A stretch of DNA of 64,000 bases from a virus (IMGVR_UViG_3300050821_008494), one strand, 5' to 3'. Counted from the stretch's first letter, positions 1,547 to 46,964 are shown. The notes: a model not told the origin generated them from the letters alone. Translations and numbers: made by a program.

Positions 1547-1566
1547 CCTTAAGATAAGCCCTGTTG
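1547..1566. repeat. 20-nt exact repeat CCTTAAGATAAGCCCTGTTG (copy 1)
   Basis: identical copy at 4518-4537; both upstream of gene starts. Confidence 0.6.
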
Positions 1567-1618
1567 TATCTGCCAGCGCAGAAGCCCTCATAAGCTACCG
1601 AAGCGAGGAGACTTCGAT

Positions 1619-2170
1619 ATGATGAAACTAGAATCAAAGCTCGACTGCGAGCAGAACAACTGCAAGATTCCCGCAATAGGCTTCATCTACTTCGCTGGAG
1701 GCGACACATTGATGCTGCTCTGCAAAGAGCATGAGAACGAACTCGCTAGAGAATTCTCAATCTTGGAGTTGGAGGAGTTCCTTTTCGACGACCCTGATTG
1801 GGCAGCGAAACTCGTCAAGCACATGAACGAGCGAGCCAATCGGAGAGCCGCAAAATACAGTCATCTCCTCCAAGAATACGACGAAGTCCGTGGCGCACGA
1901 GTTCCGGGAGGCAAGGACATAGAGCGGGTCTTCAGAGGTCTTGTCGCTTGGAAGAAAGTCTATCCAACAGTCAGAATAACTACCATGCTTGACGGTGCGA
2001 TAGATGAGGACAATCCTTCCGGAGTCTCAGACCCAGACCTCACAGACAAGAGACTTGCCGATGCCATAGAGAGGGTTGTTGCGACTCGTCTTCCAAAGCC
2101 GAAGTCGGAAGAATCCAGAGATGCTGACCTAGAGGAGCAGCAAGAGCGCAAGGAAGCAGGCGAGACCTAG
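1619..2170 (+). CDS. hypothetical protein with acidic C-terminus
   Basis: ORF track; preceded by conserved 20-nt upstream element. Confidence 0.45.
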   Translation: MMKLESKLDCEQNNCKIPAIGFIYFAGGDTLMLLCKEHENELAREFSILELEEFLFDDPDWAAKLVKHMNERANRRAAKYSHLLQEYDEVRGARVPGGKDIERVFRGLVAWKKVYPTVRITTMLDGAIDEDNPSGVSDPDLTDKRLADAIERVVATRLPKPKSEESRDADLEEQQERKEAGET

Positions 2171-2680
2171 ATGGTGCTTCCTTTTCTGACACTCAAGGTT
2201 TCAAAGGAGCCACAGGCTCTGAGGCCTAGAGTCGTCATAAGCGAGTTTGCTCTTCCAACAGACACTCGCATAGAGTCTCGCAGGGCGAATGCCAGAAGCA
2301 TACTGGCGGTCCTCGATATGATACGGTCCGCGAAGGCAGGGCAAATCGACTTAGTCATAGAGACTCAAAAGCTCAGCTCCATAGACCCTGCCATAGTGAA
2401 AGCCCTCGGAGGATTCGAAAACATGATTCCAGAGGAATGGAAGGTCTCGAAGTATCAACTCATCCCTCTCAAGGGCACACCGGAGGAGATGATGGCAACT
2501 TGGTCTATGAACGACTGGGCGATGATATGCGGAGAACTCTCTGCATATCATAGGGGAGAAACACCAGACGTTCGGACAGACACGATAAGAGCAGGTCGCA
2601 GGCTCGAAGAAGTTCTAGGTGCATACCAGAGCAAAATCTCAAAGCTCGAAGTAAAGAAGAAGAGGAAGTCATCGCGATGA
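2171..2680 (+). CDS. hypothetical protein, basic C-terminus
   Basis: ORF track; TAGATG junction. Confidence 0.45.
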   Translation: MVLPFLTLKVSKEPQALRPRVVISEFALPTDTRIESRRANARSILAVLDMIRSAKAGQIDLVIETQKLSSIDPAIVKALGGFENMIPEEWKVSKYQLIPLKGTPEEMMATWSMNDWAMICGELSAYHRGETPDVRTDTIRAGRRLEEVLGAYQSKISKLEVKKKRKSSR

Positions 2681-2976
2681 AATGTCAAATCGACGGCTGC
2701 GAGAACGAAGAGGAGATGCCAGAAGCCAAGGGCCACATCTACCCGAGCAAGTTCATACAGAAGGTGAAGCTCGCCAAGAATGGCGACATCATCAGTCCTC
2801 GTTACGGGCCTCGCCTCTGCACATCCTGCTCAGAGACAATTTACCATCTCTTCTGGCTCGAAAGTCACGGATGGTTCGACGGACTCCCGGAGAAGCTCAT
2901 AGAGCAGCAGGACAAGATAGACAAGGAGCGGGACAAATACAATCGGCTCGTTGCAGAGCTAGGAAGGAACGCCTAG
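2677..2976 (+). CDS. zinc-ribbon protein (CQIDGC...CTSC)
   Basis: ATGA overlap; Cys motifs. Confidence 0.45.
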   Translation: MKCQIDGCENEEEMPEAKGHIYPSKFIQKVKLAKNGDIISPRYGPRLCTSCSETIYHLFWLESHGWFDGLPEKLIEQQDKIDKERDKYNRLVAELGRNA

Positions 2977-3195
2977 CGTGGCATCTCTCCTAGAGCTTGC
3001 GATAGTCTACAATGGGTTCATGGGAGCATCTCTCTTGATTGGGACATCTAGCCTCTGGTGGCCAAAGAGGAAGAGCTGATATGATGTCTTTAGACGAATG
3101 GGCGAATACACCGGAGTCAAGATGCAAAACTTGCGGAGGTCTACTTCTAGTTCCTCATCCCAAAGGTTTGCACAGCCTCAAGGTGAACATCTGAC

Positions 3196-3708
3196 TTGAA
3201 CAAGTTGCAGGTCAAACCCGGTCCAAGAGTGAGTGTCTCTCTGTATTCACAAGAGCTTCAGAGTCTCCGAAAGAGGCTTCACGAACTTATAGCAGGAAGG
3301 AAATTCTTCATCATCCTAGTCACAGGAGACCGCAATTGGCCTTGGTCGGCTCGCTTCATCATAGGTAAGGCTCTCCAAGATGTCACCAGAACTCTCGCAC
3401 CGGACGTCTTCATAGTTCTCATAGAAGGAGGAGCCAAGGGAGCCGACTACTGCGCCAAGACCTACGCCGAGAAATGCGGTTGGGGAGTCCTCGAAGTCGA
3501 GGCTCATTGGGACCTCTACGGCAATCGGGCAGGCCCCGTCCGTAACAGGCAGATGTTCGAACTAGGGCAGAATGTCATCCTAGCCTTCCACGACGATTTG
3601 TCCAAGTCACGCGGGACGAAGAGCATGGTAGGAATCTGCACCGAATCTGGAAGTCAGGTAACGCTCTACGGCACAGATGGAAAGGCCTCTACTCTCGGAA
3701 GCGAGTGA
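3196..3708 (+). CDS. DUF2493/SLOG-superfamily (DprA/LOG-like Rossmann) protein
   Basis: motifs GGAKGADYCAKTYA and W.LYGNRAGPVRNRQM resemble the phage-associated DUF2493 family. Confidence 0.5.
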   Translation: MNKLQVKPGPRVSVSLYSQELQSLRKRLHELIAGRKFFIILVTGDRNWPWSARFIIGKALQDVTRTLAPDVFIVLIEGGAKGADYCAKTYAEKCGWGVLEVEAHWDLYGNRAGPVRNRQMFELGQNVILAFHDDLSKSRGTKSMVGICTESGSQVTLYGTDGKASTLGSE

Positions 3709-3712
3709 TAGC

Positions 3713-4003
3713 ATGGCAGACTGCTCAATACCCGGTTGCGACGGTGGAGCAATCACAATGGAGTATCTCTGCCCCAAACACAAGCAGGGCATAACGGGTC
3801 ACGAGCTATACCTTCTCGCAATGGAGAATGCGAAGCGCTGGAACCACGGGACCCTTCCGTCGGCCCACATCTGCTATGGCTTTCTCTTCAGCGCCCTCCA
3901 CTACCCAGACGAAGAGTTCAAGTTCAAAGTCCCTCCGATAACCCTAGTGGACTACAGCGGAATGATTCGCGACGGCGAACTCATTGAGGAGAAGAAGGCA
4001 TGA
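3713..4003 (+). CDS. hypothetical Cys/His-containing protein
   Basis: ATG at 3713 in frame of ORF 3677..4003. Confidence 0.4.
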   Translation: MADCSIPGCDGGAITMEYLCPKHKQGITGHELYLLAMENAKRWNHGTLPSAHICYGFLFSALHYPDEEFKFKVPPITLVDYSGMIRDGELIEEKKA

Positions 4004-4254: not shown

Positions 4255-4517
4255 GACGCATAACCAAAATCCTCGCTCTCCTAATCGTAGCTTCAATCCT
4301 CCCGGACTTCCTTCTTCTTCTAGGCCTGTATCTCTACTACAACATACTCAATCCTTCTCTACTCTCCTACCCTGCCCCTCACTGGCTCCTGTCTCTTCTT
4401 CTCTGGCTTCCTGCCTCGTTGATAGTATCGGTATTCTCTAGCATAGCTCTCACGACTCTAGCTTTCTTTCCCAACTTTGACATCAGGAGGAAGAGCCCTG
4501 TTGCCTCAAACCAATAG
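4251..4517 (+). CDS. small membrane protein
   Basis: ATGA overlap; hydrophobic Leu-rich translation. Confidence 0.4.
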   Translation: MRRITKILALLIVASILPDFLLLLGLYLYYNILNPSLLSYPAPHWLLSLLLWLPASLIVSVFSSIALTTLAFFPNFDIRRKSPVASNQ

Positions 4518-4537
4518 CCTTAAGATAAGCCCTGTTG
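4518..4537. repeat. 20-nt exact repeat CCTTAAGATAAGCCCTGTTG (copy 2)
   Basis: see copy 1. Confidence 0.6.
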
Positions 4538-4553: not shown

Positions 4554-5027
4554 ATGAAATTGGAAGACATTGAAGCGAAAGCTAAGGAATACGCTAGGGT
4601 CGCCCATGCAGGCAAAGTCTACGGCGACAATCAGAATTACTTCGAAGCTCATCTCACGAAGGTCGCCGACATCGTCGCCTCCGTTACAGATGACCCGGAG
4701 GTCATAGCAATGGCGTGGCTTCACGACATCCTAGAAGACACATCATTCAGAGACCTCTACGGACTCTTCGGTCTCAGAATCTCTGATGGAGTAATCTGCC
4801 TCACTCGCTACAAGGAATACAAAAGTCGCGAGAAAAACGAGGAGGTCTACATCAAGAAGCTCTCTGTTGCTCCTCCCGAAGTGAAGCTCGTCAAGCTCGC
4901 CGACATCATCGTCAACATTAGCAACCTCTCGACAAAGAAGGGTGACAAGAAATTCTACCTCCGCGAGAAGCTCACAGAGCTTCAGTCCATTGGACTTGAA
5001 TCCATCTACGAGGTCATAACATCTTGA
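4554..5027 (+). CDS. RelA/SpoT-type HD-domain hydrolase, small alarmone hydrolase (Mesh1/SAH)-like
   Basis: H..H...AWLHDILEDT...FGLRISDGVICLTR matches the Rel/Spo HD hydrolase signature (HDxxEDT, FG.xV..V.gvTK). Confidence 0.6.
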   Translation: MKLEDIEAKAKEYARVAHAGKVYGDNQNYFEAHLTKVADIVASVTDDPEVIAMAWLHDILEDTSFRDLYGLFGLRISDGVICLTRYKEYKSREKNEEVYIKKLSVAPPEVKLVKLADIIVNISNLSTKKGDKKFYLREKLTELQSIGLESIYEVITS

Positions 5028-23362: not shown

Positions 23363-23677
23363 ATGAAAACCAAGCGCACCCGGCTCCAGATGAAGGTAGA
23401 CGTCCTCACTCATCTTCACAACAACGGCTCCTTCGCGAAAACAGCAATCATGCTTACCTGTAACTTCTCTTGGGTAGTCATCTGCGAGATAATATCTAAC
23501 CTAGAGAGCATAGGCCTCATATCAGAGAACTCCGAATCCAAGTGGGGCATCACATCGAAGGGAATAGACCTCCTAAACTCTCTAAAGGACTCATCTCAAT
23601 CTATCGACCTAGACGGCAAGCTTGCATTCTTGGGGCTCTTGCCTATTACTACTGAACAGCCCATCTTAAATAACTGA
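23363..23677 (+). CDS. winged-helix DNA-binding protein (putative regulator)
   Basis: wHTH-like pattern; perfect palindrome immediately downstream. Confidence 0.4.
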   Translation: MKTKRTRLQMKVDVLTHLHNNGSFAKTAIMLTCNFSWVVICEIISNLESIGLISENSESKWGITSKGIDLLNSLKDSSQSIDLDGKLAFLGLLPITTEQPILNN

Positions 23678-23681
23678 CCTA

Positions 23682-23696
23682 CCCTTATGATAAGGG
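23682..23696. promoter_or_regulatory. perfect palindrome CCCTTAT-G-ATAAGGG (operator-like)
   Basis: between wHTH gene stop (23677) and ATG 23698. Confidence 0.45.
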
Positions 23697-23697
23697 T

Positions 23698-24036
23698 ATG
23701 CCGAGACGCAAAGACTTGCCGAGGGCCGTCTTCCTCAGGCACCAGCTAGACGAGTTCCTCGAAGAGATGTTTCACCGCTTCGAACTCGCAGAGCCAAAGC
23801 ACAAGGGCAACAGCGTCATGGACGACTCAATCGACTGGAACAGCTTCGACTGGAAGGCCATAGAGCTTCACGCTATCAACGAACTCGGTCAATTCTTCGG
23901 CCTCACCGAACGCGAGGCCAATCACCTCTTCGACCTCCTAGCCCCACACCTCACCGACCCACACGAGCCCAGACGCGCCGTTCACGTGTCCAACATGTTC
24001 TTCCTGCTCTGGTGGAAAGCCCAGCAAACCCAATGA
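23698..24036 (+). CDS. hypothetical protein
   Basis: ATG 2 nt after the palindrome CCCTTATGATAAGGG. Confidence 0.4.
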   Translation: MPRRKDLPRAVFLRHQLDEFLEEMFHRFELAEPKHKGNSVMDDSIDWNSFDWKAIELHAINELGQFFGLTEREANHLFDLLAPHLTDPHEPRRAVHVSNMFFLLWWKAQQTQ

Positions 24037-31246: not shown

Positions 31247-31485
31247 CATGAACAAAGAAGAAGCCGTCACAATTCTCCTAGTTGCCGCACTCTCAATCTG
31301 TGGAATAGTCCTCGCCTCTCCCCTCAAGGTGTGAGCCTGTCTTGGGTCTGGCAGCATTTTTCAAATCAATCCTCGACCTGCTAGACCCTCCTCTTCCAGA
31401 TGGGACATACGAGCTTATCGACTACAACTTCCCTCCGAAGCGCCGCAGAAGATATGGCAGCAGAGCTTCTTAAATACAGATTGAC

Positions 31486-31496
31486 CTTATCTTAAG
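31486..31496. promoter_or_regulatory. CTTATCTTAAG operator-like motif 10 nt upstream of SPFH gene
   Basis: reverse complement of the core of the 20-nt repeats. Confidence 0.4.
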
Positions 31497-31505
31497 CCCA
31501 CAACA

Positions 31506-32519
31506 ATGTCACGAAGATTCGGCGACAATACCGACGAACGAACAATAGGAGGGCTGCAGCGCAGGCTAGGCCTAATCCTCTTTCTCCTCATAGTAGGAGC
31601 AGTAGTGTTTAGCGTAGTCGGAGTCACTTCGACATATTCAGTCGGAGTATCGCAATCGGCAGTCCTCGTCAACGGGGTCAGCGGAGAAATCTCAGGCCCT
31701 GTCCCGGGACCCACAACTCACTTCTTCGGGAAGTATCCATGGGTCAACACAATCATCATACCAACATCAGTCCAGACTCTGACCCTTCAAGGCAACAGCA
31801 CAGGCGTCTTCGTCCTCTCTCAAGACAACCTCGAAATCGAGTTCGACATCAACTTCAGATACCAAGTCCTCTCGAACCACGCAATCCAACTCTACGAGAA
31901 GTTCCCCGGTCAGAATTGGGAGGCAGCAGCCATAGAGCCTCACATCAGGACCGCTTTCAGGGACGTCGTAGCGAAGTATGCGGCGGACCAAATCCAAATC
32001 GTGCGCGACCAGATTCAGACAGGAGTCGAGCAAGAGATTAGTAACAACATCGGCAACGACTCTTCTCTAGCAGGAGCAATCAGCGTAGTCTCCGTGCAGA
32101 TTACCGACATCACCCTGCCCGCGAGCTTCCTCGGTGCAATCCAAGCCAAGCTCAACGCGCAGCAGCAATACCTCCAAGCTCAGTTCGACGCGCAGAAGGT
32201 AGTCCTTCTAGCGACCGCGAACGCCAACGCTACCATACAGCAGGCTCTAGGAGTCAAGTCATCCCAACTCATCATAGCGAACGGCACAGCAGCGTCCCTC
32301 CAATACATAGGGAGAGAACTCAACCTGAACGCAACTCAGATTGCAGCCCTCACCCAGACCTACGTGTTCATGCAGCAACTCCAGACCCTCTGCCAGCAGT
32401 CCAGCACTTCGAGTAGCTCTGCCGGTGCTAGCACAACCTCCACGTCAGGAGCGTGCCAGAACATGGTGATGATACTCGGGTCCTCCAACGGCCAGCTCAT
32501 CCAAATCCCGGTGAAGTAG
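31506..32519 (+). CDS. SPFH/band-7 (stomatin/prohibitin-like) membrane protein
   Basis: N-terminal TM, then SPFH-like core (VSVQITDITLPASFLGAIQAKLNAQQQ...AQ) and coiled-coil tail. Confidence 0.55.
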   Translation: MSRRFGDNTDERTIGGLQRRLGLILFLLIVGAVVFSVVGVTSTYSVGVSQSAVLVNGVSGEISGPVPGPTTHFFGKYPWVNTIIIPTSVQTLTLQGNSTGVFVLSQDNLEIEFDINFRYQVLSNHAIQLYEKFPGQNWEAAAIEPHIRTAFRDVVAKYAADQIQIVRDQIQTGVEQEISNNIGNDSSLAGAISVVSVQITDITLPASFLGAIQAKLNAQQQYLQAQFDAQKVVLLATANANATIQQALGVKSSQLIIANGTAASLQYIGRELNLNATQIAALTQTYVFMQQLQTLCQQSSTSSSSAGASTTSTSGACQNMVMILGSSNGQLIQIPVK

Positions 32520-32521
32520 CC

Positions 32522-36513: not shown

Positions 36514-36528
36514 TGGTGGTCTCGAAAA

Positions 36529-37017: not shown

Positions 37018-37020
37018 AAA

Positions 37021-39260: not shown

Positions 39261-39341
39261 TCACCTCTGACCGCTGGAGCCCACGGAGGTAACACTCCGT
39301 GACTCCTTCCCTATCAAAAAACTAGAGAGAAAAAGAGAAAA

Positions 39342-39981: not shown

Positions 39982-40307
39982 CTCGGATGTCCTTTCCAGA
40001 CCCTACCGAGGACGCTTCGATAAGAAGCATAAGCCCGGTAGACGCGACGTTGACAATCGTGATAGTCGGAGCCCTGCTAGCAGTAGCTCCGTTTGTCATG
40101 GGGCTTCTTCAGAATGGAATCAAGACGGGAGGCCTACCTTCTACGGCTCAAACTTCCATATCGGGAGTCTTCACTCAAATCTTCAACACATTCAACATTC
40201 TTCCTCTCTACGTGGTAATCATTGCACTGGTCGGAATCCTTTCAACAATGATGCTCTTGTTCCCTCGAAGGAACAAGATAGAGTTTGGGGACGACACGGT
40301 AGTCTAG
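39978..40307 (+). CDS. 2-TM membrane protein, paralog A2
   Basis: GTGA overlap; LTIVIVGALLAVAPFVMGLLQNGIKTGGLPSTAQTSISGVF... Confidence 0.5.
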   Translation: MTRMSFPDPTEDASIRSISPVDATLTIVIVGALLAVAPFVMGLLQNGIKTGGLPSTAQTSISGVFTQIFNTFNILPLYVVIIALVGILSTMMLLFPRRNKIEFGDDTVV

Positions 40308-40319
40308 GAGTAGCTTGAC

Positions 40320-40547
40320 ATGGCCGCAGTCCTCGGAGCCGGAATCGGACTTGGTGCTACTCTCGGTGCTGCTGGAACAGTAACCTGTGCCGCAGGCGGA
40401 TGCGGAAGACCTACCAAGCATCACCACGGAGCTAACCCATGTTGCGGCTCCGAGCTTCATTGTGCCAAAATCCTCGGCGTGGAGCAAAGTAGCTCAAGAC
40501 CTGCATTCGGTCCTACTATGGACGAAGTCCTAACGGGAGTTCCTTGA
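40320..40547 (+). CDS. His/Cys-rich small protein, family member 2 (Gly/Ala-rich N-terminal hydrophobic segment)
   Basis: CAAGGCG...HHHGANPCCGSELHCAKILGVEQ...PAFGPTMDEVLTG. Confidence 0.45.
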   Translation: MAAVLGAGIGLGATLGAAGTVTCAAGGCGRPTKHHHGANPCCGSELHCAKILGVEQSSSRPAFGPTMDEVLTGVP

Positions 40548-40548
40548 C

Positions 40549-40782
40549 TTGGCAAAAGAAGGGGACATCTGTCCTAACTGTCACATAGGAGTCCTCGGTT
40601 GGGCAAAGAACTCTTACGAGGCTTCTATGTATGAGAAGCTGGCCTGTAACAATTGCGGGCACGTAGCAAATGAAAGACGGAAGACTTCCGGGCTTGCTGT
40701 AGATGTTACTCCGAGGATAAGCACAAGAATCACAGGTTCCGGAGTCCCTCAATATGACAACTACTTCGAGAGTGGAATCTGA
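40549..40782 (+). CDS. zinc-ribbon protein (CPNCH...CNNCGH)
   Basis: TTG start. Confidence 0.35.
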   Translation: MAKEGDICPNCHIGVLGWAKNSYEASMYEKLACNNCGHVANERRKTSGLAVDVTPRISTRITGSGVPQYDNYFESGI

Positions 40783-40967
40783 TGCCTAGAGACAAGAGAC
40801 GGGTTACGGAGAGCAACGTTGCGGAGAACCTGAAGGACATTCACACCCTTCACGGAATCCAGAACCCACACGACACCGTCGTCGGAGAAGTCACTCACAA
40901 CGTCGTAGACGGCTACATGGGTGACGTTCAGAAGCACGCAAAGGAAGCGAGAGAAAGAAAGCTGTAG
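40782..40967 (+). CDS. hypothetical His-rich protein
   Basis: TGATG overlap. Confidence 0.35.
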   Translation: MPRDKRRVTESNVAENLKDIHTLHGIQNPHDTVVGEVTHNVVDGYMGDVQKHAKEARERKL

Positions 40968-40973
40968 AGAGTC

Positions 40974-41462
40974 ATGGCAACCAGCTACAACGTCCAAAGT
41001 CTGGCGCTTCTAGCTGGTCCTCTGACTTTCGCATTCGCCTCCATAATGATAGGAGTCGATGATGGCATACCGGCCATTCACGACATGGCTCTGATAACCG
41101 GAGCCTTATTCTTCGTCTTCTCTCACTTCGCCCATTCCATTACCTCCTTCGGCATCGTAGGAGTTCCTCGCGTAGGGCTCGGTCCGATAGAAGGCACACT
41201 CACAATCGTCGTAGTCGGAACTCTGAGCGCGGTCTCTCCATTCGTCGTAGGGAGCCTTCAGAACGGTCTCAATACCAGCGGCCTTCCTTCTGCCGCGAAG
41301 GTCTCAATCGGTAACATCTTCCAGCAAATCTACAACGCTCTTGGAATAGTCCCTCTCGTCCTCGTAATCCTCGCCCTAGTCGTAATCTTGTCTGCGGTCT
41401 TCCTTCTTGTTCCTCGACGCTCCGGCATGATGCTCGACACAGGAGGTTCGCAAGCGGTATGA
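40974..41462 (+). CDS. membrane protein, paralog A3 (extra N-terminal TMs)
   Basis: LTIVVVGTLSAVSPFVVGSLQNGLNTSGLPSAAKVSIGNIF...LVLVILALVVILSAVFLLVPRR. Confidence 0.5.
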   Translation: MATSYNVQSLALLAGPLTFAFASIMIGVDDGIPAIHDMALITGALFFVFSHFAHSITSFGIVGVPRVGLGPIEGTLTIVVVGTLSAVSPFVVGSLQNGLNTSGLPSAAKVSIGNIFQQIYNALGIVPLVLVILALVVILSAVFLLVPRRSGMMLDTGGSQAV

Positions 41463-41485
41463 GAAAGTCCGAGAAGAGAACCAAG

Positions 41486-41635
41486 ATGGAACAGGAGTTT
41501 GTCACACTCTATCGCCTCAATTGGGGCAACACAATAGGTCTGGAGACCTCTCGCGTAACAGGAATGTCAGACCGCGAGCTTGAGATGTCACTCGACAGTC
41601 AACGGAAGTTTCCGGGGAAGTTCAGAGGACCATGA
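41486..41635 (+). CDS. small hypothetical protein
   Basis: hand-found; stop overlaps next ATG. Confidence 0.25.
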   Translation: MEQEFVTLYRLNWGNTIGLETSRVTGMSDRELEMSLDSQRKFPGKFRGP

Positions 41636-41880
41636 GCGCAGCAGGTGCGGCCTTCGGGGTCATTGGTGCGGGTCTTCCTCTCATAGCAGGATTCATAGTC
41701 CTCGATGCAATAGCAGGGACAGTCAAGTGCACTCATCCCGGCTGCGGTGAAGAGATGCATCATTCAAAGCAAGCCTCTCATTCGAAGGCTCATCAGTCGA
41801 AAGGAGAGCACACCACTCACAAGACGATACAGCGGCACGAATTCGGTGGAGACATGGACTCGTGGCTCGGCCTTGGTTAA
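41632..41880 (+). CDS. His/Cys-rich small protein, family member 3 (Gly/Ala-rich N-terminal segment)
   Basis: TVKCTHPGCGEEMHHSKQASHSKAH...FGGDMDSWLGLG. Confidence 0.4.
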   Translation: MSAAGAAFGVIGAGLPLIAGFIVLDAIAGTVKCTHPGCGEEMHHSKQASHSKAHQSKGEHTTHKTIQRHEFGGDMDSWLGLG

Positions 41881-42070
41881 TCCTAACAAGCGTCATTACT
41901 TCCAAGCGGACTCCTACGAGTCCAATTACTGTAAGTGCGGTAAGTGGTCTCTCGACCCAATCCACAACGACCCTATGAGAGTAGCAACAAGGGTTGCTGT
42001 CGGTATTGCAGACAAGCAGTCCGGAATAAAACACAAGGGGCTGGTGCCTCCTGTTCCGGAGTGGGATTGA
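41873..42070 (+). CDS. small Zn-ribbon protein (YCKCGKW...), tandem paralog 1
   Basis: TTG start; motif shared with next ORF. Confidence 0.3.
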   Translation: MVNPNKRHYFQADSYESNYCKCGKWSLDPIHNDPMRVATRVAVGIADKQSGIKHKGLVPPVPEWD

Positions 42071-42072
42071 GT

Positions 42073-42249
42073 ATGGCTTCCAACGTCCGTCGCCACTCAT
42101 TTACCGAGAGGGAGCCCGGCAGTGAATACTGTAAGCACTGCGAGAAGCACTACTCGAATCCAGTTCACATAATCCTCCGCTCTACTCCTGTCGGAAAGTT
42201 TACTCCTAACGACGAAGACAGGATTGTTGGGAAGGTCCCGAAGTGGTAG
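42073..42249 (+). CDS. small Zn-ribbon protein (YCKHCEKH...), tandem paralog 2
   Basis: ATG at 42073 in frame of ORF 41944..42249. Confidence 0.3.
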   Translation: MASNVRRHSFTEREPGSEYCKHCEKHYSNPVHIILRSTPVGKFTPNDEDRIVGKVPKW

Positions 42250-42251
42250 AA

Positions 42252-42479
42252 ATGGCTAGTGAAGACTACAGAGGCTCTCCATACTCTAGAGTCACCGGCT
42301 CCGGAATCTTCGGGAGGAGTCCTGCCCTCGATGAGAAGTGCACAGAATGCTACGGCCCCATGGAGATAACCGTCTTCGGCGAGAAGGTCTGCGCATCGAA
42401 CCCGTCTTGCGATTCTCCTCTCAACCCTCTCAACAAGAAGGCCAAGCACAAGACTAGAATTAGGGTAGCATTGATGTAG
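42252..42479 (+). CDS. zinc-ribbon protein (CTECYGP...C...C)
   Basis: ORF track. Confidence 0.35.
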   Translation: MASEDYRGSPYSRVTGSGIFGRSPALDEKCTECYGPMEITVFGEKVCASNPSCDSPLNPLNKKAKHKTRIRVALM

Positions 42480-42481
42480 CC

Positions 42482-42703
42482 ATGGCCAAGAGAGTCTTCG
42501 TGAAGAGGAGTCCCAACGCGAGCTTCGAGGATTTACAGAGCAGGCTCAAGCAGGACAACGTGCCTTTCCAATTCCTCAAGGACATCAACGCTGGAGTCGA
42601 ATACGTCGAGGCAGACATTGACCCTGCCTATGCAAACCTAGTGGGAGGTAGCACAGGCATGGCGGTAGGGAAAGTCAAGAGGACGGGGATGTGGGACTTC
42701 TAA
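42482..42703 (+). CDS. hypothetical protein
   Basis: ORF track. Confidence 0.35.
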   Translation: MAKRVFVKRSPNASFEDLQSRLKQDNVPFQFLKDINAGVEYVEADIDPAYANLVGGSTGMAVGKVKRTGMWDF

Positions 42704-42960
42704 TGGCAGGGAGACATAGCCGACGTCAAGGAAGGGGACCCGGAGGGAAACCTACAATGGAAGACTACCAATCAGACTCATTCTTCACCATAGGTGCCAT
42801 TCAGGGAACGATAGCGAAGACCAAAGAGAAGTCCGGACGCATGGGTCCTACCGCAGCACTAAGGGAGATAGAAGAGACCATAGGAACATTCGAGCATCAG
42901 CGCCACGTTCGTAGAGAGGCAGGTCTCGTTCCGGGAGCTTTCGAGGAGCCAGAAGAATAA
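42703..42960 (+). CDS. hypothetical basic protein
   Basis: TAATG overlap. Confidence 0.35.
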   Translation: MAGRHSRRQGRGPGGKPTMEDYQSDSFFTIGAIQGTIAKTKEKSGRMGPTAALREIEETIGTFEHQRHVRREAGLVPGAFEEPEE

Positions 42961-43106
42961 TGGTAAAAAAGTCCGAGCCCAAGCTTGTAGCATACGGAAC
43001 CATTAACGTCTACGAGATAGAGGGAAAGGCCTACTACAGATGGAGAGGAAAATACACGCGAGCACCCGAGAGGGACAATCTCATCCCTCAGGCACCGGAG
43101 TGGTAG
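42960..43106 (+). CDS. small hypothetical protein
   Basis: TAATG overlap; 48 aa. Confidence 0.25.
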   Translation: MVKKSEPKLVAYGTINVYEIEGKAYYRWRGKYTRAPERDNLIPQAPEW

Positions 43107-43109
43107 AGC

Positions 43110-43304
43110 ATGGCACGCAAGAGCAAAGACCATCTCGTTCACTTCAAGTGCTACCGCTGCGGAACCGACAACACAGAGATTACTACATACTACGACGGAG
43201 TCACGGAGAAGATTGGCGGTGACTTGGTCACTTGCAAAGGCTGTGGGGCTTATCTGTCATTCCCTTCCGACTACGGCCTCGTGAGAATGAAGCACTTTGG
43301 CTAG
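43110..43304 (+). CDS. zinc-ribbon protein (CYRCG...CKGCG)
   Basis: ORF track. Confidence 0.35.
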   Translation: MARKSKDHLVHFKCYRCGTDNTEITTYYDGVTEKIGGDLVTCKGCGAYLSFPSDYGLVRMKHFG

Positions 43305-43462
43305 ACGAAAGTGCACAGACTGTGGCAAGATGAAGGACTGCAAGACTTGCATCGAATACGGAGCACCATACTGCTCAGGCTGCGAGGCTCAGCATAGCCA
43401 CATAGTCCGGATGCAGCCGGTAATCCCGAGGAGATTCCTCGGAGGTTAAGAACTTGGCAGGA

Positions 43463-43609
43463 ATGCACATCTGCGGCTATTGTGGGAAGGACGACTTCAA
43501 GACTCGTGCGGAGCAGGAATCTCACGAGAGGAGAGTTCACGGTGCATCGGATTCTCCGATAGTCCAGAAGTATGAATGGCGTGGCAGCTACAAGGTGAGG
43601 CCAGCCTAA
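43463..43609 (+). CDS. small C2H2-type zinc-finger protein
   Basis: CGYCGKDDFKTRAEQESHERRVH = C-x2-C-x13-H-x4-H. Confidence 0.3.
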   Translation: MHICGYCGKDDFKTRAEQESHERRVHGASDSPIVQKYEWRGSYKVRPA

Positions 43610-43794
43610 TGGCAAACTGCGGAGTCTGCAAACTTTCTCTAAGTCCCGCTATGGGCCCTACAGTCCACGACAAGGAATATGGAAAGATTCACAGAGGCTG
43701 CTCTGTCTGGCTCAACGACCGCAGATGGGAACAGAAGCAGAGGGAGGCTAACGCAGGACCCGCAGAGCATTGGGTCAAGGAGGCCGGTCTCTGA
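43609..43794 (+). CDS. small Cys protein ending ...WVKEAGL
   Basis: TAATG overlap; embedded SD at 3' end. Confidence 0.3.
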   Translation: MANCGVCKLSLSPAMGPTVHDKEYGKIHRGCSVWLNDRRWEQKQREANAGPAEHWVKEAGL

Positions 43795-44015
43795 TGCCAA
43801 GAGCCTACACTGTGGAGGATTTGCTCAAGAAGCGCCGTGGTGCTAAAAGAGAATTGAACTCCGTAGTGAGAGAGTTCGGAGAGGTTGGCGGTTTCGCTCT
43901 TCATCATGGCAAGAAGGTCGCTCAGAAGAGCATAGAAGATATAGACATAAGGCTCGCGAGACTAGGCTACAATCCTGAAGGAACCCCGTTGTCGGAATTC
44001 AGTGACAATTCATGA
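43794..44015 (+). CDS. hypothetical protein
   Basis: TGATG overlap. Confidence 0.35.
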   Translation: MPRAYTVEDLLKKRRGAKRELNSVVREFGEVGGFALHHGKKVAQKSIEDIDIRLARLGYNPEGTPLSEFSDNS

Positions 44016-44122
44016 TGCTATCATACAAGAGCTTGGAGGAGACTCTTCGCAAGCATCACAAGGGAGCCGACCATACTTTCAAGCTCTTCCCTACCTACAC
44101 CTACGAGCTGGAGGGACTCTGA
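44012..44122 (+). CDS. small protein YKSLEETLRKHHKG..., tandem paralog 1
   Basis: hand-found in frame 2; similar to next ORF. Confidence 0.3.
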   Translation: MMLSYKSLEETLRKHHKGADHTFKLFPTYTYELEGL

Positions 44123-44247
44123 TGGGAAAGCCCTACAAGAGCTTACAGGAGAGCCTGCGGAAGCAGCACACGCTAGGCGAATACAAAGTCCTTGACTCCG
44201 GCTCCTTCATAGGAGACGACCTCTTCAGCGAAATGGAGGGAGTCTGA
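44122..44247 (+). CDS. small protein YKSLQESLRKQHTLG..., tandem paralog 2
   Basis: internal ATG of track ORF 44002..44247. Confidence 0.3.
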   Translation: MGKPYKSLQESLRKQHTLGEYKVLDSGSFIGDDLFSEMEGV

Positions 44248-44384
44248 TGGCGTGCATCTGCGGCGACTCTACATACATAGACTCTCACCACAAGATTCAT
44301 TGTATGGGATGCGCAAAGCTCAAGTCGAGATGCGACTGCCCTCGAAAAGAATCTGGGCACCTCCAAAGGATGGAGTTCGGTTAG
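44247..44384 (+). CDS. small Cys/His zinc-binding protein
   Basis: hand-found. Confidence 0.3.
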   Translation: MACICGDSTYIDSHHKIHCMGCAKLKSRCDCPRKESGHLQRMEFG

Positions 44385-44386
44385 CC

Positions 44387-44548
44387 ATGGCACGAAAGTG
44401 TCCCAAGTGCGGAGGCACAATGACCGATTTGGGTTGGAGCGCATTTCATAACGCTCATGTCTACCAATGTCGCAAGAAGAGTTGTCGCTCCGTAGAGCAC
44501 GTGTCCTACGTGAACAACGTAGAAACAACGGAGACGCCGAAGTGGTAA
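44387..44548 (+). CDS. zinc-ribbon protein (CPKCGG...C..C)
   Basis: ATG in frame of ORF 44252..44548. Confidence 0.35.
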   Translation: MARKCPKCGGTMTDLGWSAFHNAHVYQCRKKSCRSVEHVSYVNNVETTETPKW

Positions 44549-44550
44549 CC

Positions 44551-44682
44551 ATGGGAAGTCAAAAAAGAGAGCATGACCCAACTCTGAAGTTCCTCGTCGC
44601 CCTAGAGCAGGGCACAATATCCTCCCAGAAGTTCAACGAGCTGGCTAGAAACACGGACGTCTACATAGCTGAGTTGATTTGA
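44551..44682 (+). CDS. small hypothetical protein
   Basis: hand-found. Confidence 0.25.
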   Translation: MGSQKREHDPTLKFLVALEQGTISSQKFNELARNTDVYIAELI

Positions 44683-44889
44683 ATGGCTAAGTCACGCTCA
44701 CGCGACGACAGCGCGGCCTTCGTCGAACTCGAAGAGCTTGAGGGAGAGATTGAGGCTATGAAGTCAAGAGCCCTCTTCAGGACAGGCTCGCGGAGAGAAA
44801 TCTCCCGCAGAGACCGTCAGCGCTACGACTACGCAACTCAACGCGAGGCCGAAATCCTAGACGCTGCAGGAATCGAGTGGAGGACTTAG
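44683..44889 (+). CDS. hypothetical coiled-coil protein
   Basis: ORF track. Confidence 0.35.
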   Translation: MAKSRSRDDSAAFVELEELEGEIEAMKSRALFRTGSRREISRRDRQRYDYATQREAEILDAAGIEWRT

Positions 44890-45205
44890 AGCTTGCCAAA
44901 GAGGAACCCTCATCTGGTTGAGTTCGGCACGAGTCATTTCGTTCATCTTGACGAGGGACATATCGAGCAAGAAATCAAGAGGTCTCATGGAGTTGCCGGT
45001 GACCTTCCTCTAGACCCTGTGGCAAACTCGAAGCTCATACCGAGGCTCGATTGGTGACATGACAGAGAAGCTCCCCAATCACGAGTTCGAAGATATCACT
45101 ATGACCGACATTGTCGGAATATCAGAGGAGACTGAGAGCTTCATATCAGCGGGAGGAGAGCTTTGAGATGGCTACCTTAAACAAGACAAGGAGAGACGTC
45201 TAGGT

Positions 45206-45463
45206 ATGGGACAGAACATCGAGACTCTCGAAGGCTTCAGCCTCTTGGATTCTACAAGAGGTCTTGTAGTCTGCAAGCGGTGTAAGTCCGAAGTCCATCA
45301 TACGAAGCAACAGGAGCATACTAGGTTGCATCACCCCGCTAACTCTCGTGGAGTAGAACCCGGCCACACAATGGCAGAAATCCTCGGGGTTGCCGGAGTA
45401 TCTCACGAGACAGGGAAGGACTCCGACCCGTTCGACGTCAACATGGACGACCTGCTCAAGTGA
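45206..45463 (+). CDS. His/Cys-rich small protein, family member 4
   Basis: CKRCKSEVHHTKQQEHTRLHH...HTMAEILGV...DPFDVNMDDLLK. Confidence 0.4.
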   Translation: MGQNIETLEGFSLLDSTRGLVVCKRCKSEVHHTKQQEHTRLHHPANSRGVEPGHTMAEILGVAGVSHETGKDSDPFDVNMDDLLK

Positions 45464-45469
45464 TATTCC

Positions 45470-45709
45470 GTGCACAAAGAGTGGCTCGCTTTAATCGGAC
45501 GGAAGCTCGACGAATACAAATACAGCAACGACCCTAACGAGAGAGCCATTTACGAGCGCATTGAGCGGGTCTATCTTGCTCCAGCAGTCAACGAGATAAA
45601 CGCCAACGAACAATCCAAAGGCCGAATGGCTCCTTCTCGTGGAGGCAGAAGGGCTCCTGACCCATTCGACGGAATGCCCGGCGTCTCTATGGACGACGTG
45701 CTGGGTTGA
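45470..45709 (+). CDS. hypothetical protein with the family C-terminal motif (DPFDGMPGVSMDDVLG)
   Basis: GTG start. Confidence 0.35.
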   Translation: MHKEWLALIGRKLDEYKYSNDPNERAIYERIERVYLAPAVNEINANEQSKGRMAPSRGGRRAPDPFDGMPGVSMDDVLG

Positions 45710-45712
45710 ATC

Positions 45713-45750
45713 CTGTTGACTGTCAACAGTCCGATTTCCTTAAGAGTCGG
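45713..45750. promoter_or_regulatory. two palindromic operator-like elements
   Basis: CTGTTGAC-T-GTCAACAG (8-bp arms) and CCGA-tttCCTTAAGag-TCGG upstream of wHTH gene 45794. Confidence 0.4.
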
Positions 45751-45793
45751 AACAAACATTCCTGTTAGGCGTGGCGACGCAGGGAGCAGATGA

Positions 45794-46072
45794 GTGATTT
45801 TGGACGAGACACAACTCATCAACTACATGAAATCTAACAACTGTATGGCTAAGGTCGGTAAGCCAGACACAATGGAGGCTGCTGCGGCCTTAGAGCGGAG
45901 AGGCATGATTGAGAAGGTCGGGTCTCACAAGGGTCAACCAATCTACCATATGACCGACAAGGCAATAGAGGTCTACACCGGGAAGCGTCCTGCTCCAGTT
46001 GCTACTCTGAACGACTCAATAGCAGTCGGCTCAAGACTCAACCTGAAGACGGAGATGCCAATAAGGGCATGA
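45794..46072 (+). CDS. winged-helix DNA-binding protein, paralog of the 46972 N-terminus
   Basis: GTG start; wHTH-like. Confidence 0.4.
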   Translation: MILDETQLINYMKSNNCMAKVGKPDTMEAAAALERRGMIEKVGSHKGQPIYHMTDKAIEVYTGKRPAPVATLNDSIAVGSRLNLKTEMPIRA

Positions 46073-46905
46073 GCGAGTCTCCAAAGGTGAGAGTCGATTC
46101 ATCCGGCGATACAGGAACACGGACCACCTTTTCAAACATCTCAGAAGAGGAGCGTAGGAAGCTCAACGCGCCTCCAAGCAAGATAAAGACAGTTCCTATT
46201 AAAATCAAGAACATCGCCGTTGAGGCAGCAAAGGCAACTCCCGGAGCGTTGAAGTCAGGAGCGACATTAGGAGCCAAGGCCATAGCTACCGCAGCGGCAG
46301 AAGGCACCAAAGGTTATCGCGAAGACCGACAACGTGCCGACTCTGTTAGGAGAATCAACGCGGAGATAGCACAAGATGCCTACCTCAAAGGACTTCAGAC
46401 CGGAGTTGCCAAGAGAGCTTACGCTAGAGGTCAGCAAAGAGGTCTTGGTAGCAGAACCAACGGTCGTCAGAGCATAGAGCAACAGGCCTACGAGTATGGT
46501 CTCAAGAAAGGAATTGCGAAGCGAGCCGCACAGAAGGGCTACGAGCGAGGCCTTGGAGTTCAGCAAAGACCTTCTCCTTCTGGAGAGTTCGGACTTGGAG
46601 GAGGTCTCTCTGGTTACACTCTTGGCGGTGACTTAGGCATTATCGGCATGGGACCTAGCTCTACCGTCCGACAGGTTCCGGGCAAAGGAGGGAAGCCACA
46701 GCTCGTCCGTGTAGCCGAAGAGCCAGCTAGAATCGGAGGAGGGGAGGCAGAAGTCCTCTCTTGGATGAACCAACCTGCGCCTCCTGCCAGCAAGGTCGTC
46801 ATAAAGAAGGGAAAGCCTGTCACAATCAAGGCAGCTCCTCGAAGAGGCGACTCTATGGAAGACATTCTCGGATTCGGAGCCCTCGACTCAATGCGAATAG
46901 AGTGA
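46069..46905 (+). CDS. repeat protein (278 aa) with Y.KGL..G.AKRAY.RG...RGLG repeats
   Basis: ATGA overlap; three internal repeats. Confidence 0.5.
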   Translation: MSESPKVRVDSSGDTGTRTTFSNISEEERRKLNAPPSKIKTVPIKIKNIAVEAAKATPGALKSGATLGAKAIATAAAEGTKGYREDRQRADSVRRINAEIAQDAYLKGLQTGVAKRAYARGQQRGLGSRTNGRQSIEQQAYEYGLKKGIAKRAAQKGYERGLGVQQRPSPSGEFGLGGGLSGYTLGGDLGIIGMGPSSTVRQVPGKGGKPQLVRVAEEPARIGGGEAEVLSWMNQPAPPASKVVIKKGKPVTIKAAPRRGDSMEDILGFGALDSMRIE

Positions 46906-46949
46906 GCTTTGTTTGGTTTCATCATCTCAACAGAGTCATCTAAATGCGT

Positions 46950-46964
46950 CCCTTAACTTAAGGG
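46950..46964. promoter_or_regulatory. perfect palindrome CCCTTAA-C-TTAAGGG (operator-like)
   Basis: 8 nt upstream of ATG 46972. Confidence 0.45.

What the first reader, a model, noticed from the sequence alone, without database searches (positions are those of the whole stretch)
1548..46964. Recurring palindromic operator CTTA-N3-TAAG immediately upstream of at least five genes, next to wHTH regulators
The core CTTA-N3-TAAG occurs at 1548-1558 and 4519-4529 inside a 20-nt exact repeat, at 23682-23696 as CCCTTATGATAAGGG, at 31486-31496 as CTTATCTTAAG, and at 46950-46964 as CCCTTAACTTAAGGG. A degenerate copy lies at 47660 (CCTTAACTTATGCCC). Each site is 2-70 nt upstream of a start codon. The two long perfect palindromes flank winged-helix genes: one directly after the 23363 wHTH stop, one 8 nt before the 46972 wHTH start. 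This looks like a small regulon with autoregulation by an element-encoded dimeric wHTH protein. Alternatively the palindromes are mRNA hairpins that occlude start codons.
Basis: seen in the sequence. Interest (0 to 1): 0.6.

Follow-up and report, generated by a model that had tools for sequence, protein, structure and literature searches.

The report
Promoter-core palindrome in archaeal mobile element
A short palindrome, CCTTA-N3-TAAGG, recurs only in the core promoters of an otherwise unknown ~114-kb archaeal virus- or plasmid-like element, and is most likely the binding site of a dimeric repressor; this is a real but ordinary kind of regulatory signal.

Summary
CTTA-N3-TAAG occurs 5 times in the window against 0.48 expected. 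In 81.7 kb of the source contig it occurs 6 times. All 6 lie in the 7.7% of sequence that is non-coding (0.065 expected there), and none lie in 75 kb of coding sequence. Degenerate copies raise the count to 9 sites, all next to + strand gene starts.

The element looks archaeal. It has an RFC small subunit, an HTH_45 protein, EarA/PadR-like winged-helix proteins, and TATA-like boxes 24-32 nt before leaderless start codons. At seven sites the palindrome lies between such a TATA box and the start codon, with variable spacing. At the two 20-nt repeat copies it sits where the TATA box should be.

Only 3 of 8 sites can fold as hairpins, so the mRNA-hairpin alternative fails.

Best reading: an operator for a dimeric repressor that blocks TBP or RNA polymerase at roughly 40% of the recognisable promoters. 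The monocistronic winged-helix gene 46972, which sits behind a perfect site, is the best candidate regulator. That assignment is inferred, not shown.

No close relatives exist, and distant relatives lack the motif, so there is no comparative support. This is a new member of a known kind, of moderate interest.

The parts
1547..1566 (+). Site 1: CCTTAAGATAAGC (1547-1559) inside 20-nt exact repeat copy A. There is no separate TATA box upstream. The GAGGAG Shine-Dalgarno and ATG 1619 lie 60 nt downstream, so the motif itself may act as the TATA box of a leadered transcript.
4518..4537 (+). Site 2: CCTTAAGATAAGC (4518-4530) inside 20-nt exact repeat copy B. The motif centre is 30 nt before ATG 4554, which is the expected TATA-box position. 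A third copy of AGCCCTGTTG lies at 4494-4503.
23666..23673 (+). TATA-like box TTAAATAA at -32..-25 of ATG 23698. It lies inside the 3' end of the wHTH gene 23363.
23680..23698 (+). Site 3: perfect palindrome TACCCTTA-TGA-TAAGGGTA with 8-bp arms (core 23683-23695). Its last base is the A of ATG 23698.
31470..31477 (+). TATA-like box TTAAATAC at -36..-29 of ATG 31506.
31485..31497 (+). Site 4: CCTTATCTTAAGC, 8 nt before ATG 31506 (SPFH/Band 7 gene).
46938..46945 (+). TATA-like box ATCTAAAT about 30 nt before ATG 46972. It is preceded by a T-rich stretch (46900-46920) that may end the upstream transcription unit.
46950..46964 (+). Site 5: perfect palindrome CCCTTA-ACT-TAAGGG, 7 nt before ATG 46972.
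47645..47652 (+). TATA-like box TTTAAAAG at -30..-23 of ATG 47675.
47666..47678 (+). Site 6: CCTTAACTTATGC. The left half is perfect and the right half is degenerate. It contains the ATG (47675) of a 74-aa gene, which is followed by a presenilin-like membrane protein.
46972..47481 (+). 169-aa protein with three parts: an N-terminal winged-helix domain (residues 1-65), a conserved QDYAEAY..NPVGMEDV segment, and a C-terminal beta-hairpin module. The gene is monocistronic and sits behind site 5. It is the best candidate for the binding protein.
45794..46072 (+). 92-aa short paralogue of the winged-helix domain of 46972. It gives a sub-threshold Pfam EarA-like hit (E 0.018).
23363..23677 (+). 104-aa HTH_45 (PF14947, Sso10a-like) winged-helix protein. 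It has its own weak TATA-like box (CATATTAC, 23331-23338) and no palindrome. Second candidate regulator.
23698..24036 (+). First gene behind site 3: 112 aa, no family match.
31506..32519 (+). First gene behind site 4: SPFH/Band 7 protein, 337 aa.
4554..5027 (+). First gene behind site 2: HD-domain (HD_4) protein.
1619..2170 (+). First gene behind site 1: 183 aa, no family match. It heads a tightly packed run of + strand genes that extends to site 2.

Best explanation
CCTTA-N3-TAAGG is a protein-binding cis-element (operator) built into the core of archaeal-type promoters. These promoters belong to a ~114-kb, probably circular, virus- or plasmid-like element of a mesophilic archaeon.

At seven sites the palindrome lies between a TATA-like box (centred 26-32 nt before the start codon) and the start of a leaderless gene. 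Its centre is 12-25 bp downstream of the TATA centre. A 19-bp footprint would therefore cover the region where TFB and RNA polymerase engage and the DNA melts. At the two 20-nt repeat copies the palindrome sits where the TATA box itself should be.

A symmetric dimer bound there would block RNA polymerase recruitment, or TBP binding at sites 1 and 2. It would thereby co-repress a set of transcription units spread over the whole element.

The most likely binder is the element's own winged-helix protein 46972, whose monocistronic gene lies behind one of the three perfect palindromes (negative autoregulation). The HTH_45 protein 23363 or a host factor are alternatives.

Shown: the motif, its statistics, its exclusive promoter location, its position relative to TATA-like boxes and start codons, the lack of a conserved hairpin, and the winged-helix fold of 46972.

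Inferred: transcription start sites, repression rather than activation, and the identity of the binding protein.
For: Enrichment and location:
- 5 copies against 0.48 expected in the window.
- 6 of 6 exact copies lie in 6.4 kb of non-coding DNA (0.065 expected; 0 of 5000 shuffles reach 6). None lie in 75 kb of coding DNA. Non-coding GC (0.516) is close to coding GC (0.527), so composition does not explain this.
- Other 'enriched' palindromes, such as CTTC-N5-GAAG at 24 copies, are all coding and driven by codon usage.
- The extra 5' C is present in all copies.

Archaeal promoter architecture:
- TATA-like boxes peak 24-31 nt before the first ATG of ORFs (bins of 9 and 5, against 0-4 in the other bins). 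7 of the 17 such promoters carry the motif.
- Operon-internal genes have a Shine-Dalgarno in 52 of 78 cases and a TATA-like box in 3 of 78.
- All motif-bearing first genes have a TATA-like box and no Shine-Dalgarno.

Archaeal affiliation:
- The RFC small subunit best matches A. fulgidus and P. furiosus RFCS.
- HTH_45 is present.
- EarA-like hits occur in 9 of 25 members of the winged-helix family.
- Sigma-70-like promoters are not enriched (8 found, 11.3 expected) and none sits at a site.

Features of a separate transcription-factor site:
- Spacing to the TATA box varies from 1 to 13 nt, while TATA-to-ATG spacing is constant. This fits a separate site better than a core promoter element.
- The half-site sequence is conserved while the spacer sequence varies.

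Position argues for repression. [quoted passage not shown]

Against: - No transcription start site data exist. TATA boxes and leaderless starts are predictions.
- No comparative support. The 169-aa and 1055-aa proteins have no close homologue among 5.8 billion proteins.
- Distant relatives (L009-L018) contain no copy of the motif. There the long winged-helix gene sits in an operon without its own promoter.
- The five imperfect sites all keep the promoter-distal half CCTTA perfect. They share a non-palindromic right flank, TA(A/T)GCCC(A/T), which a symmetric dimer does not explain.
- Several sites share longer flanks (a 20-mer; ATGTGTGCAAA; CTTAAGCCCA(C)AACAATG). Part of the recurrence may therefore reflect duplication of promoter modules.
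- The core is TATA-like in composition.
- EarA, the only characterised relative of the candidate winged-helix family, is an activator that binds upstream of the BRE.
Confidence: 0.6

Rival explanations
1. The palindrome is an element-specific positive promoter element. It marks a temporal class of promoters and is read by an element-encoded factor (for example the EarA-like winged-helix protein) or by host TFB/RNA polymerase. It would stimulate rather than block initiation, like the GTC motif downstream of the TATA box in SIRV1/2 promoters.
For: The motif lies downstream of the TATA box in about 40% of predicted promoters. It is directional in its imperfect copies, with the left half always perfect and a shared right flank GCCC(A). 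SIRV1/2 provide a precedent for a virus-specific motif downstream of the TATA box (PMC5569661). The candidate family is related to the activator EarA.
Against: Distance to the TATA box varies by 12 nt, and distance to the start codon also varies. A core element read by the basal machinery should be fixed. The adjacent TATA boxes are already close to consensus. Three sites are perfect 6-8-bp-arm palindromes, typical of dimeric transcription-factor operators. Known archaeal activators bind upstream of the BRE.
Confidence: 0.17
2. There is no dedicated regulator. The copies are TATA-like A/T-rich sequences and relics of duplicated promoter modules. The recurrence would reflect common descent plus the general A/T requirement of the -10 (promoter-proximal) region of archaeal promoters.
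For: Sites 1 and 2 are a 20-nt exact duplicate. Other pairs share flanks: ATGTGTGCAAA at L003 4790 and L005 18541, and CTTAAGCCCA(C)AACAATG at L003 4164 and window 31491. The core TTAAGATAA resembles a TATA box. At sites 1 and 2 it occupies the TATA position.
Against: Outside the motif, the seven sites with separate TATA boxes have unrelated flanks and different spacer sequences. The 5+5 half-sites are nevertheless kept. Three sites extend the dyad symmetry to 6-8 bp with different outer bases. Many promoters in the same element (30689, 34790, 38922, 53407, L005 18090) lack the motif. Zero copies occur in 75 kb of coding DNA.
Confidence: 0.12
3. The palindromes act in RNA as hairpins next to start codons, occluding translation or serving as processing sites. 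A related version is that they form DNA hairpin promoters for an element-encoded RNA polymerase, as in phage N4.
For: Sites 3, 5 and 7 fold into hairpins of -7.9 to -8.8 kcal/mol directly before the ATG. On read-through transcripts, for example 23363 into 23698, such a hairpin could lower translation.
Against: Five of 8 sites have MFE 0 or an unrelated fold. The arms are the same sequence at all sites, so there is no covariation. With TATA boxes at about -28, the transcripts start at or after the motif. No RNA polymerase gene was found in the 82 kb examined.
Confidence: 0.04

Closest known systems
Archaeal repressor operators that overlap or follow the TATA box (e.g. Pyrococcus LrpA and Phr, Thermococcales TrmB/TGM, methanogen NrpR GGAA-N6-TTCC)
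   Same: A short dyad-symmetric site placed between the TATA box and the transcription start, or over the TATA box, at several promoters. The expected mechanism is steric exclusion of TBP/TFB or RNA polymerase (principle quoted in PMC5512572; LrpA title). The individual examples are from my own knowledge.
   Different: The sequence (CCTTA-N3-TAAGG) is new to me, and no binding protein is known. The promoters belong to a mobile element rather than to a cellular pathway. Binding and repression are untested.
Transcription regulators of archaeal viruses and their sites (SSV1 F55, SIRV1 SvtR, AFV6 AvtR, STIV F93; the SIRV1/2 GTC motif downstream of the TATA box)
   Different: Most characterised viral factors are ribbon-helix-helix proteins from hyperthermophilic crenarchaeal viruses. 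Here the candidates are winged-helix proteins of an orphan family in a mesophile-like element. The motif position relative to the TATA box is variable, unlike the SIRV GTC motif.
EarA-like (PF07381) and PadR-like winged-helix regulators
   Same: The 46972/45794 family has a PadR/EarA-like recognition-helix and wing signature (..TL..A..LE..G(I/L)..K.G....P.Y.(L/I)T..G). 9 of 25 members hit PF07381 at E <= 0.1, the best at 7.8e-7. One member is named PadR family by JGI.
   Different: The window proteins do not reach the Pfam cut-off (45794: 15.3 bits against 22; 46972: no hit). EarA is an activator that binds 6-bp repeats upstream of the BRE. 46972 carries two extra conserved modules that EarA and PadR lack.
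Lambda-type autoregulated phage repressor with multiple operators
   Same: An element-encoded dimeric DNA-binding protein whose own promoter carries a strong operator, with further operators at other promoters of the element.
   Different: This is an analogy only. The basal machinery is archaeal, there is no divergent promoter pair or tandem operator array, and a lysogeny switch is not shown.

Membership tests
Transcription-factor operator in an archaeal core promoter | Recurrent, statistically enriched motif confined to promoter regions | tested here: met
   6 of 6 exact copies lie in 7.7% non-coding DNA against 0.065 expected, and 0 lie in coding DNA. 5 copies against 0.48 expected in the window.
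Transcription-factor operator in an archaeal core promoter | Dyad symmetry compatible with a homodimer | tested here: met
   5+5 half-sites with a fixed 3-bp spacer. Three sites are perfect with 6-8-bp arms. Five or six sites have a weaker right half.
Transcription-factor operator in an archaeal core promoter | Position overlapping the TATA box or lying between the TATA box and the transcription start | tested here: inconclusive
   TATA-like boxes 24-32 nt before leaderless ATGs are supported statistically. The motif lies between box and ATG at 7 sites and at the TATA position at 2 sites. Transcription starts are predicted, not mapped.
Transcription-factor operator in an archaeal core promoter | Sequence-specific binding by a cognate protein, with an effect on transcription | not testable with these tools
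   Requires EMSA or footprinting and in vitro transcription.
Transcription-factor operator in an archaeal core promoter | Conservation of the site at orthologous promoters in relatives | tested here: inconclusive
   No close relatives exist. Distant relatives L009-L018 have no copy. The only metagenome match to the 20-mer, L019, lies inside an ORF of an unrelated contig.
Winged-helix DNA-binding domain (proteins 46972 and 45794) | Winged-helix fold | tested here: met
EarA-like family PF07381 | Score above the Pfam gathering cut-off (22 bits) | tested here: not met
   45794 scores 15.3 bits (E 0.018) and 46972 has no hit. 9 of 25 relatives match at E <= 0.1, the best at 7.8e-7. This is a related branch, not a demonstrated member.
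HTH_45 (PF14947, Sso10a-like) for protein 23363 | Score above the Pfam gathering cut-off (25.5 bits) | tested here: met
   47.8 bits, E 1.4e-12, covering residues 4-77. There is a weak PDB match to Sso10a.
RNA hairpin occluding the start codon | A stable stem at all copies, kept by compensatory change | tested here: not met
   Five of 8 sites have MFE 0 or an unrelated fold. The arms have identical sequence at all sites, so there is no covariation.
SIRV-type virus-specific promoter element (GTC motif) | Fixed position directly downstream of the TATA box in most promoters | tested here: not met
   The gap between the TATA box and the motif is 1-13 nt. The motif is present in 7 of 17 predicted promoters.
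Bacterial sigma-70 promoter / -10 element | -35 and -10 hexamers at 16-18 nt spacing, enriched over chance | tested here: not met
   8 found against 11.3 expected in 30001-50000, and none at a motif site. The A/T-rich boxes keep their distance to the ATG, not to the motif.
N4-type DNA hairpin promoter | A hairpin-forming promoter plus an element-encoded RNA polymerase | tested here: not met
   Five of 8 sites form no hairpin. No RNA polymerase domain was found among 109 small proteins or the large ORFs of the 82 kb examined. About 32 kb of the element was not seen.

The most novel reading that the evidence does not exclude
The motif and the orphan three-module winged-helix protein 46972 form the master switch of a previously undescribed lineage of large (~114-kb) viruses or plasmids of mesophilic archaea. 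One autoregulated dimer would hold roughly 40% of the element's promoters silent, as a lysogeny-like or temporal programme. It would bind a site that can either replace the TATA box or sit on the melting region. The always-perfect promoter-distal half-site and the conserved GCCC(A) flank would reflect a second, asymmetric contact, for example with TFB or RNA polymerase, giving a dual repressor/activator mode.
Probability: 0.12. Interest if true: 0.65.

Novelty: new member of a known kind. Interest (0 to 1): 0.4.

Why it matters
Little is known about transcription control in archaeal mobile elements outside a few hyperthermophilic crenarchaeal viruses. This case offers a clean set of nine sites with graded quality, placed in predicted core promoters of an orphan 114-kb element, with a plausible self-encoded winged-helix regulator. 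That makes a compact, directly testable regulon, using EMSA and in vitro transcription with about 20-bp oligonucleotides. It also supplies a marker for the element's transcription units. It does not challenge current models.

Tried and rejected
- Close relatives for phylogenetic footprinting. IMG/VR scans with the 169-aa and 907-aa proteins and with the 20-mer found nothing. Megablast and tblastn against phage records found nothing useful. The 169-aa and 1055-aa proteins have only themselves among 5.8 billion proteins.
- Metagenome scan with the 20-mer. It gave one contig, L019, with no other similarity, and the match lies inside an ORF. I treat it as a chance hit.
- Genome-collection scan with the DegT aminotransferase to place the host. 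It gave only distant bacterial hits at 25-31% identity, which are uninformative.
- Distant relatives reached through an exhaustive HMMER search. These are L009-L018, with GC 56-60%, partly from the JGI samples 3300018013 and 3300018019. They contain no motif copy and no analogous recurring promoter palindrome. The GAACTT-N4-AAGTTC palindrome seen there is coding (MNF.KF).
- Other over-represented palindromes (CTTC-N5-GAAG, CTTC-N2-GAAG, GTAG-N4-CTAC, CTAC-N3-GTAG) are all coding and follow from codon bias.
- tRNA and Rfam scans of the window found nothing.
- A search of the paper library for the run accession found nothing.
- The closest homologue of 46972 (P0003, 57% identity) lies on a 1.6-kb contig with no DNA available.

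Full report
**Observation**

The core CTTA-N3-TAAG occurs exactly five times in the window, at 1548, 4519, 23684, 31486 and 46952. Dinucleotide shuffles give 0.48, and none of 100 reaches five.
- a 20-nt exact repeat, CCTTAAGATAAGCCCTGTTG, at 1547-1566 and 4518-4537;
- CCCTTATGATAAGGG at 23682-23696, where the dyad actually runs for 8-bp arms over 23680-23698 and ends on the A of the ATG;
- CTTATCTTAAG at 31486;
- CCCTTAACTTAAGGG at 46950-46964.

The degenerate copy CCTTAACTTATGCCC is at 47666-47680, not 47660. It contains the ATG of gene 47675.

**Source and extent**

The window is positions about 8958-72957 of a 114,176-bp Logan contig (SRR7094834). An independent ENA assembly has a 114,287-bp contig that breaks at a different place. 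After subtracting the assemblers' k-mer overlaps (31 and 141), both lengths are about 114,145 bp. I therefore infer a circular or circularly permuted element. This is an inference, not a demonstration.

I assembled 81.75 kb of the contig from loci L003, the window and L005. In that stretch the core occurs six times. The sixth copy is GACCTTAAGATAAGGTC at L005 18518-18534, 6 nt before the ATG of a 152-aa gene.

All six copies carry an extra 5' C that the search did not require. Allowing a degenerate right half, or one core mismatch, adds three promoter-located copies:
- window 47666;
- L003 4771 (CCTTATCTTATGCC);
- L003 4159 (GCTTTACTTAAGCC).

The other one-mismatch hits lie within coding sequence or show no promoter context. 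Their number fits chance.

**Is it more than chance?**

Non-coding DNA is 7.7% of the 81.75 kb, and its GC content (0.516) is close to that of coding DNA (0.527). All six exact copies are non-coding. Shuffles of the non-coding segments give 0.065, and 0 of 5000 reach six. There is no copy in 75 kb of coding DNA.

An unbiased scan of all short palindromes found others with similar or greater nominal excess, such as CTTC-N5-GAAG (24 against 3). Every one of those is coding and follows from TTC/AAG codon use. The location test is therefore what carries the weight.

One caveat applies. Sites 1 and 2 are a duplicate, and other pairs share flanks. The number of independent sites is nearer five to six than nine.

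**What kind of element, and what kind of promoter?**

Nearly all genes are on the + strand and tightly packed. Almost none has a PHROG or Pfam match. The informative matches point to Archaea:
- An RFC small subunit whose best solved relatives are the Archaeoglobus and Pyrococcus RFCS.
- An HTH_45 (Sso10a-like) protein at 23363.
- A winged-helix family with EarA-like and PadR-like affinities.

Protein composition is neither halophilic nor hyperthermophile-like (median pI 7.1).

Gene starts fall into two classes:
- Of 78 operon-internal genes, 52 have a GGAG-type Shine-Dalgarno and 3 have an A/T-rich box at -40..-19.
- Of 51 genes with an upstream gap, 18 have such a box.
- All five motif-bearing first genes in that table (window 23698, 31506, 46972, 47675, and 71150 = L005 18541) have the box and no Shine-Dalgarno.

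A/T-rich boxes such as TTAAATAA, TATAAATAA, TTTAAAAG and AATATATG peak 24-31 nt before the first ATG of ORFs. That is the spacing expected for an archaeal TATA box before a leaderless gene. Sigma-70-like promoters and intrinsic terminators are not enriched, and none coincides with a site.

**Anatomy of the sites**

At seven sites the order is TATA-like box, then 1-13 nt, then the palindrome, then 0-8 nt, then the start codon. TATA-to-ATG distance is nearly constant (box centre at -26 to -32). The palindrome floats between them, with its centre 12-25 bp after the TATA centre.

At the two 20-nt repeat copies there is no separate box. At site 2 the palindrome centre is 30 nt before ATG 4554, which is the TATA position. 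At site 1 the same sequence is followed 60 nt later by GAGGAG and ATG 1619, which suggests a leadered transcript.

Seven of 17 predicted TATA-ATG promoters carry the motif. Clear promoters without it exist at 30689, 34790, 38922, 53407 and L005 18090. So the motif marks a subset of promoters and is not a general promoter feature.

The genes behind the sites head runs of genes spread over the whole element:
- a 58-aa ORF followed by the DUF6011 gene (L003 4787 and 4960);
- an 81-aa membrane protein;
- 1619;
- HD-domain gene 4554;
- 23698;
- SPFH gene 31506;
- winged-helix gene 46972;
- the 74-aa gene followed by a presenilin-like protein;
- a 152-aa gene followed by a 970-aa helicase.

**DNA or RNA?**

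Folded as RNA, only sites 3, 5 and 7 form hairpins (-7.9 to -8.8 kcal/mol). The other five have MFE 0 or an unrelated fold. What is conserved is the sequence of the half-sites, CCTTA and TA(A/T)G(G/C), and the 3-bp spacer length. The spacer sequence is not conserved and there are no compensatory changes. If the transcripts are leaderless, the motif is mostly not transcribed.

The hairpin alternative therefore fails as a common explanation. An incidental effect of the three strong hairpins on read-through transcripts cannot be excluded.

**Mechanism**

A fixed-spacer dyad that floats within the TATA-to-start interval of strong-looking promoters is the classic position of archaeal repressors. 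These hinder TBP/TFB sterically or prevent RNA polymerase recruitment, whereas activators bind upstream of the BRE (PMC5512572; LrpA reference in PMC2995911).

I therefore favour a dimeric repressor operator (confidence 0.6). The perfect sites (3, 5, 7) would be high-affinity, and the imperfect sites would be weaker.

Three observations do not fit a simple symmetric model:
- The imperfect sites always keep the TATA-proximal half perfect.
- Six sites share the right flank TA(A/T)GCCC(A/T).
- Several sites share longer flanks.

These keep two rivals alive. One is an element-specific positive promoter element, comparable to the GTC motif downstream of the TATA box in SIRV1/2 (PMC5569661). The other is duplicated promoter modules with no dedicated factor.

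**Candidate regulators**

*23363.* It is a bona fide HTH_45 protein (47.8 bits). The palindrome next to it lies after its stop codon and belongs to the promoter of 23698. Its own promoter has no palindrome.

*46972 (169 aa) and 45794 (92 aa).* They are paralogues (E 3e-8). Neither has a Pfam hit above threshold.

An exhaustive HMMER search found 24 relatives. The full-length ones share three modules:
- an N-terminal domain;
- a QDYA.A(Y/F)..(N/H)PVG segment;
- a C-terminal E(Y/F)(I/V).(I/V)DGK.YKK hairpin.

Nine of 25 family members hit EarA-like PF07381, the best at 7.8e-7. The window proteins do not reach the cut-off.

46972 is monocistronic. A T-rich stretch precedes its promoter, and it carries a perfect site. 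That is the arrangement expected for negative autoregulation. In a distant relative the long winged-helix gene instead follows the short paralogue in an operon (L018 189-413 and 410-907), so this arrangement is not conserved. The assignment of 46972 as the binder is an inference. I put it at about 0.3.

**Comparative evidence**

None could be obtained. There are no close relatives in IMG/VR, phage records, the 5.8-billion-protein set or the JGI contigs. Distant relatives lack the motif.

**Verdict**

- An operator-like element is likely, and autoregulation of 46972 is plausible.
- The setting is an archaeal core promoter.
- The 23363 site is not autoregulatory.
- The hairpin alternative is rejected.
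- No protein is yet tied to the motif.

This is a new member of a known kind of regulatory signal. I rate its interest at 0.4. Most of the novelty lies in the orphan 114-kb element itself.

Noticed in passing
whole window and flanks (L003, L005): The window belongs to a ~114-kb contig assembled independently twice, with different break points and near-identical length after removing k-mer overlap. It is probably a complete circular or circularly permuted archaeal virus- or plasmid-like element. Almost all of its roughly 150 genes are orphans. The 1055-aa and 169-aa proteins have no homologue other than themselves among 5.8 billion proteins.
   Followed up: partly
window 1-64000 plus flanks: Palindromes without a spacer are strongly under-represented: 4+4 at 133 against 281 expected, and 5+5 at 32 against 71. 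This suggests avoidance of restriction sites.
   Followed up: no
45713-45729; also 9849-9858 and L003 4021-4032: A perfect palindrome, CTGTTGAC-T-GTCAACAG, lies in the gap upstream of the short winged-helix gene 45794 and is followed by CCTTAAG at 45738. The related 10-mer CTGTTGACAG (or its complement) recurs just upstream of the TAAATACT box before the 1055-aa gene (9849) and at L003 4021. CCCTGTTG is also part of the 20-nt repeat. This may be a second regulatory motif, located upstream of TATA boxes.
   Followed up: partly
47482-47674: A 193-nt gap contains its own TATA-like box (CATAAATAAC, 47506), two copies of GTTCGCTCC (47482, 47529), a CT-rich run, and (TGAAC)x3 at 47593-47607. It may encode a small RNA or a leader. 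There is no Rfam match.
   Followed up: no
63422-64000, continuing to L005 16329; L005 16758-18050: An 1838-aa protein has many repeats of ALTQGSHTF.GS.GL.NST..GWDFNTG.NSIK. It is followed by a 430-aa protein with a long Thr/Ser-rich tract. Both are likely surface or fibre proteins. A distant relative (L018) has an 1816-aa protein near its winged-helix gene pair.
   Followed up: no
50828-63371: A sugar-modification cluster includes a methyltransferase, GT2, FMN reductase-like protein, ATP-grasp, PIG-L deacetylase, NAD-dependent epimerase, GT1 (on the - strand), DegT aminotransferase and aldo-keto reductase. It is unusual cargo, possibly for glycosylation of virion or host surface.
   Followed up: no
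L003 4790-4800 and L005 18541-18551: The genes behind two of the sites begin with the same 11-mer, ATGTGTGCAAA (Met-Cys-Ala-Lys/Asn). About 0.02 such coincidences are expected by chance. This suggests a duplicated promoter-plus-start module.
   Followed up: no
38851-38921: An A/T-rich block (TTTGTATATAGTTATGTTACGAATCTGTGTTTTGTTATATG) lies before leaderless ATG 38922, with CTTAAG directly before the ATG. It may be a strong or bidirectional promoter region.
   Followed up: no
47900-48817 and L009 174-1037: A presenilin-like membrane protein preceded by a 74-aa basic protein is conserved as a gene pair in a distant relative (L009). The motif at its promoter is not conserved there.
   Followed up: partly
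L003 1-607, 604-1356, 2775-4133; L005 19003-20762: Replication genes lie just outside the window: an archaeal-type RFC small subunit, a PD-(D/E)XK nuclease, a DUF3987 primase/helicase-like protein (distant hits to phage primases), and a 970-aa DEAD/ResIII helicase.
   Followed up: partly
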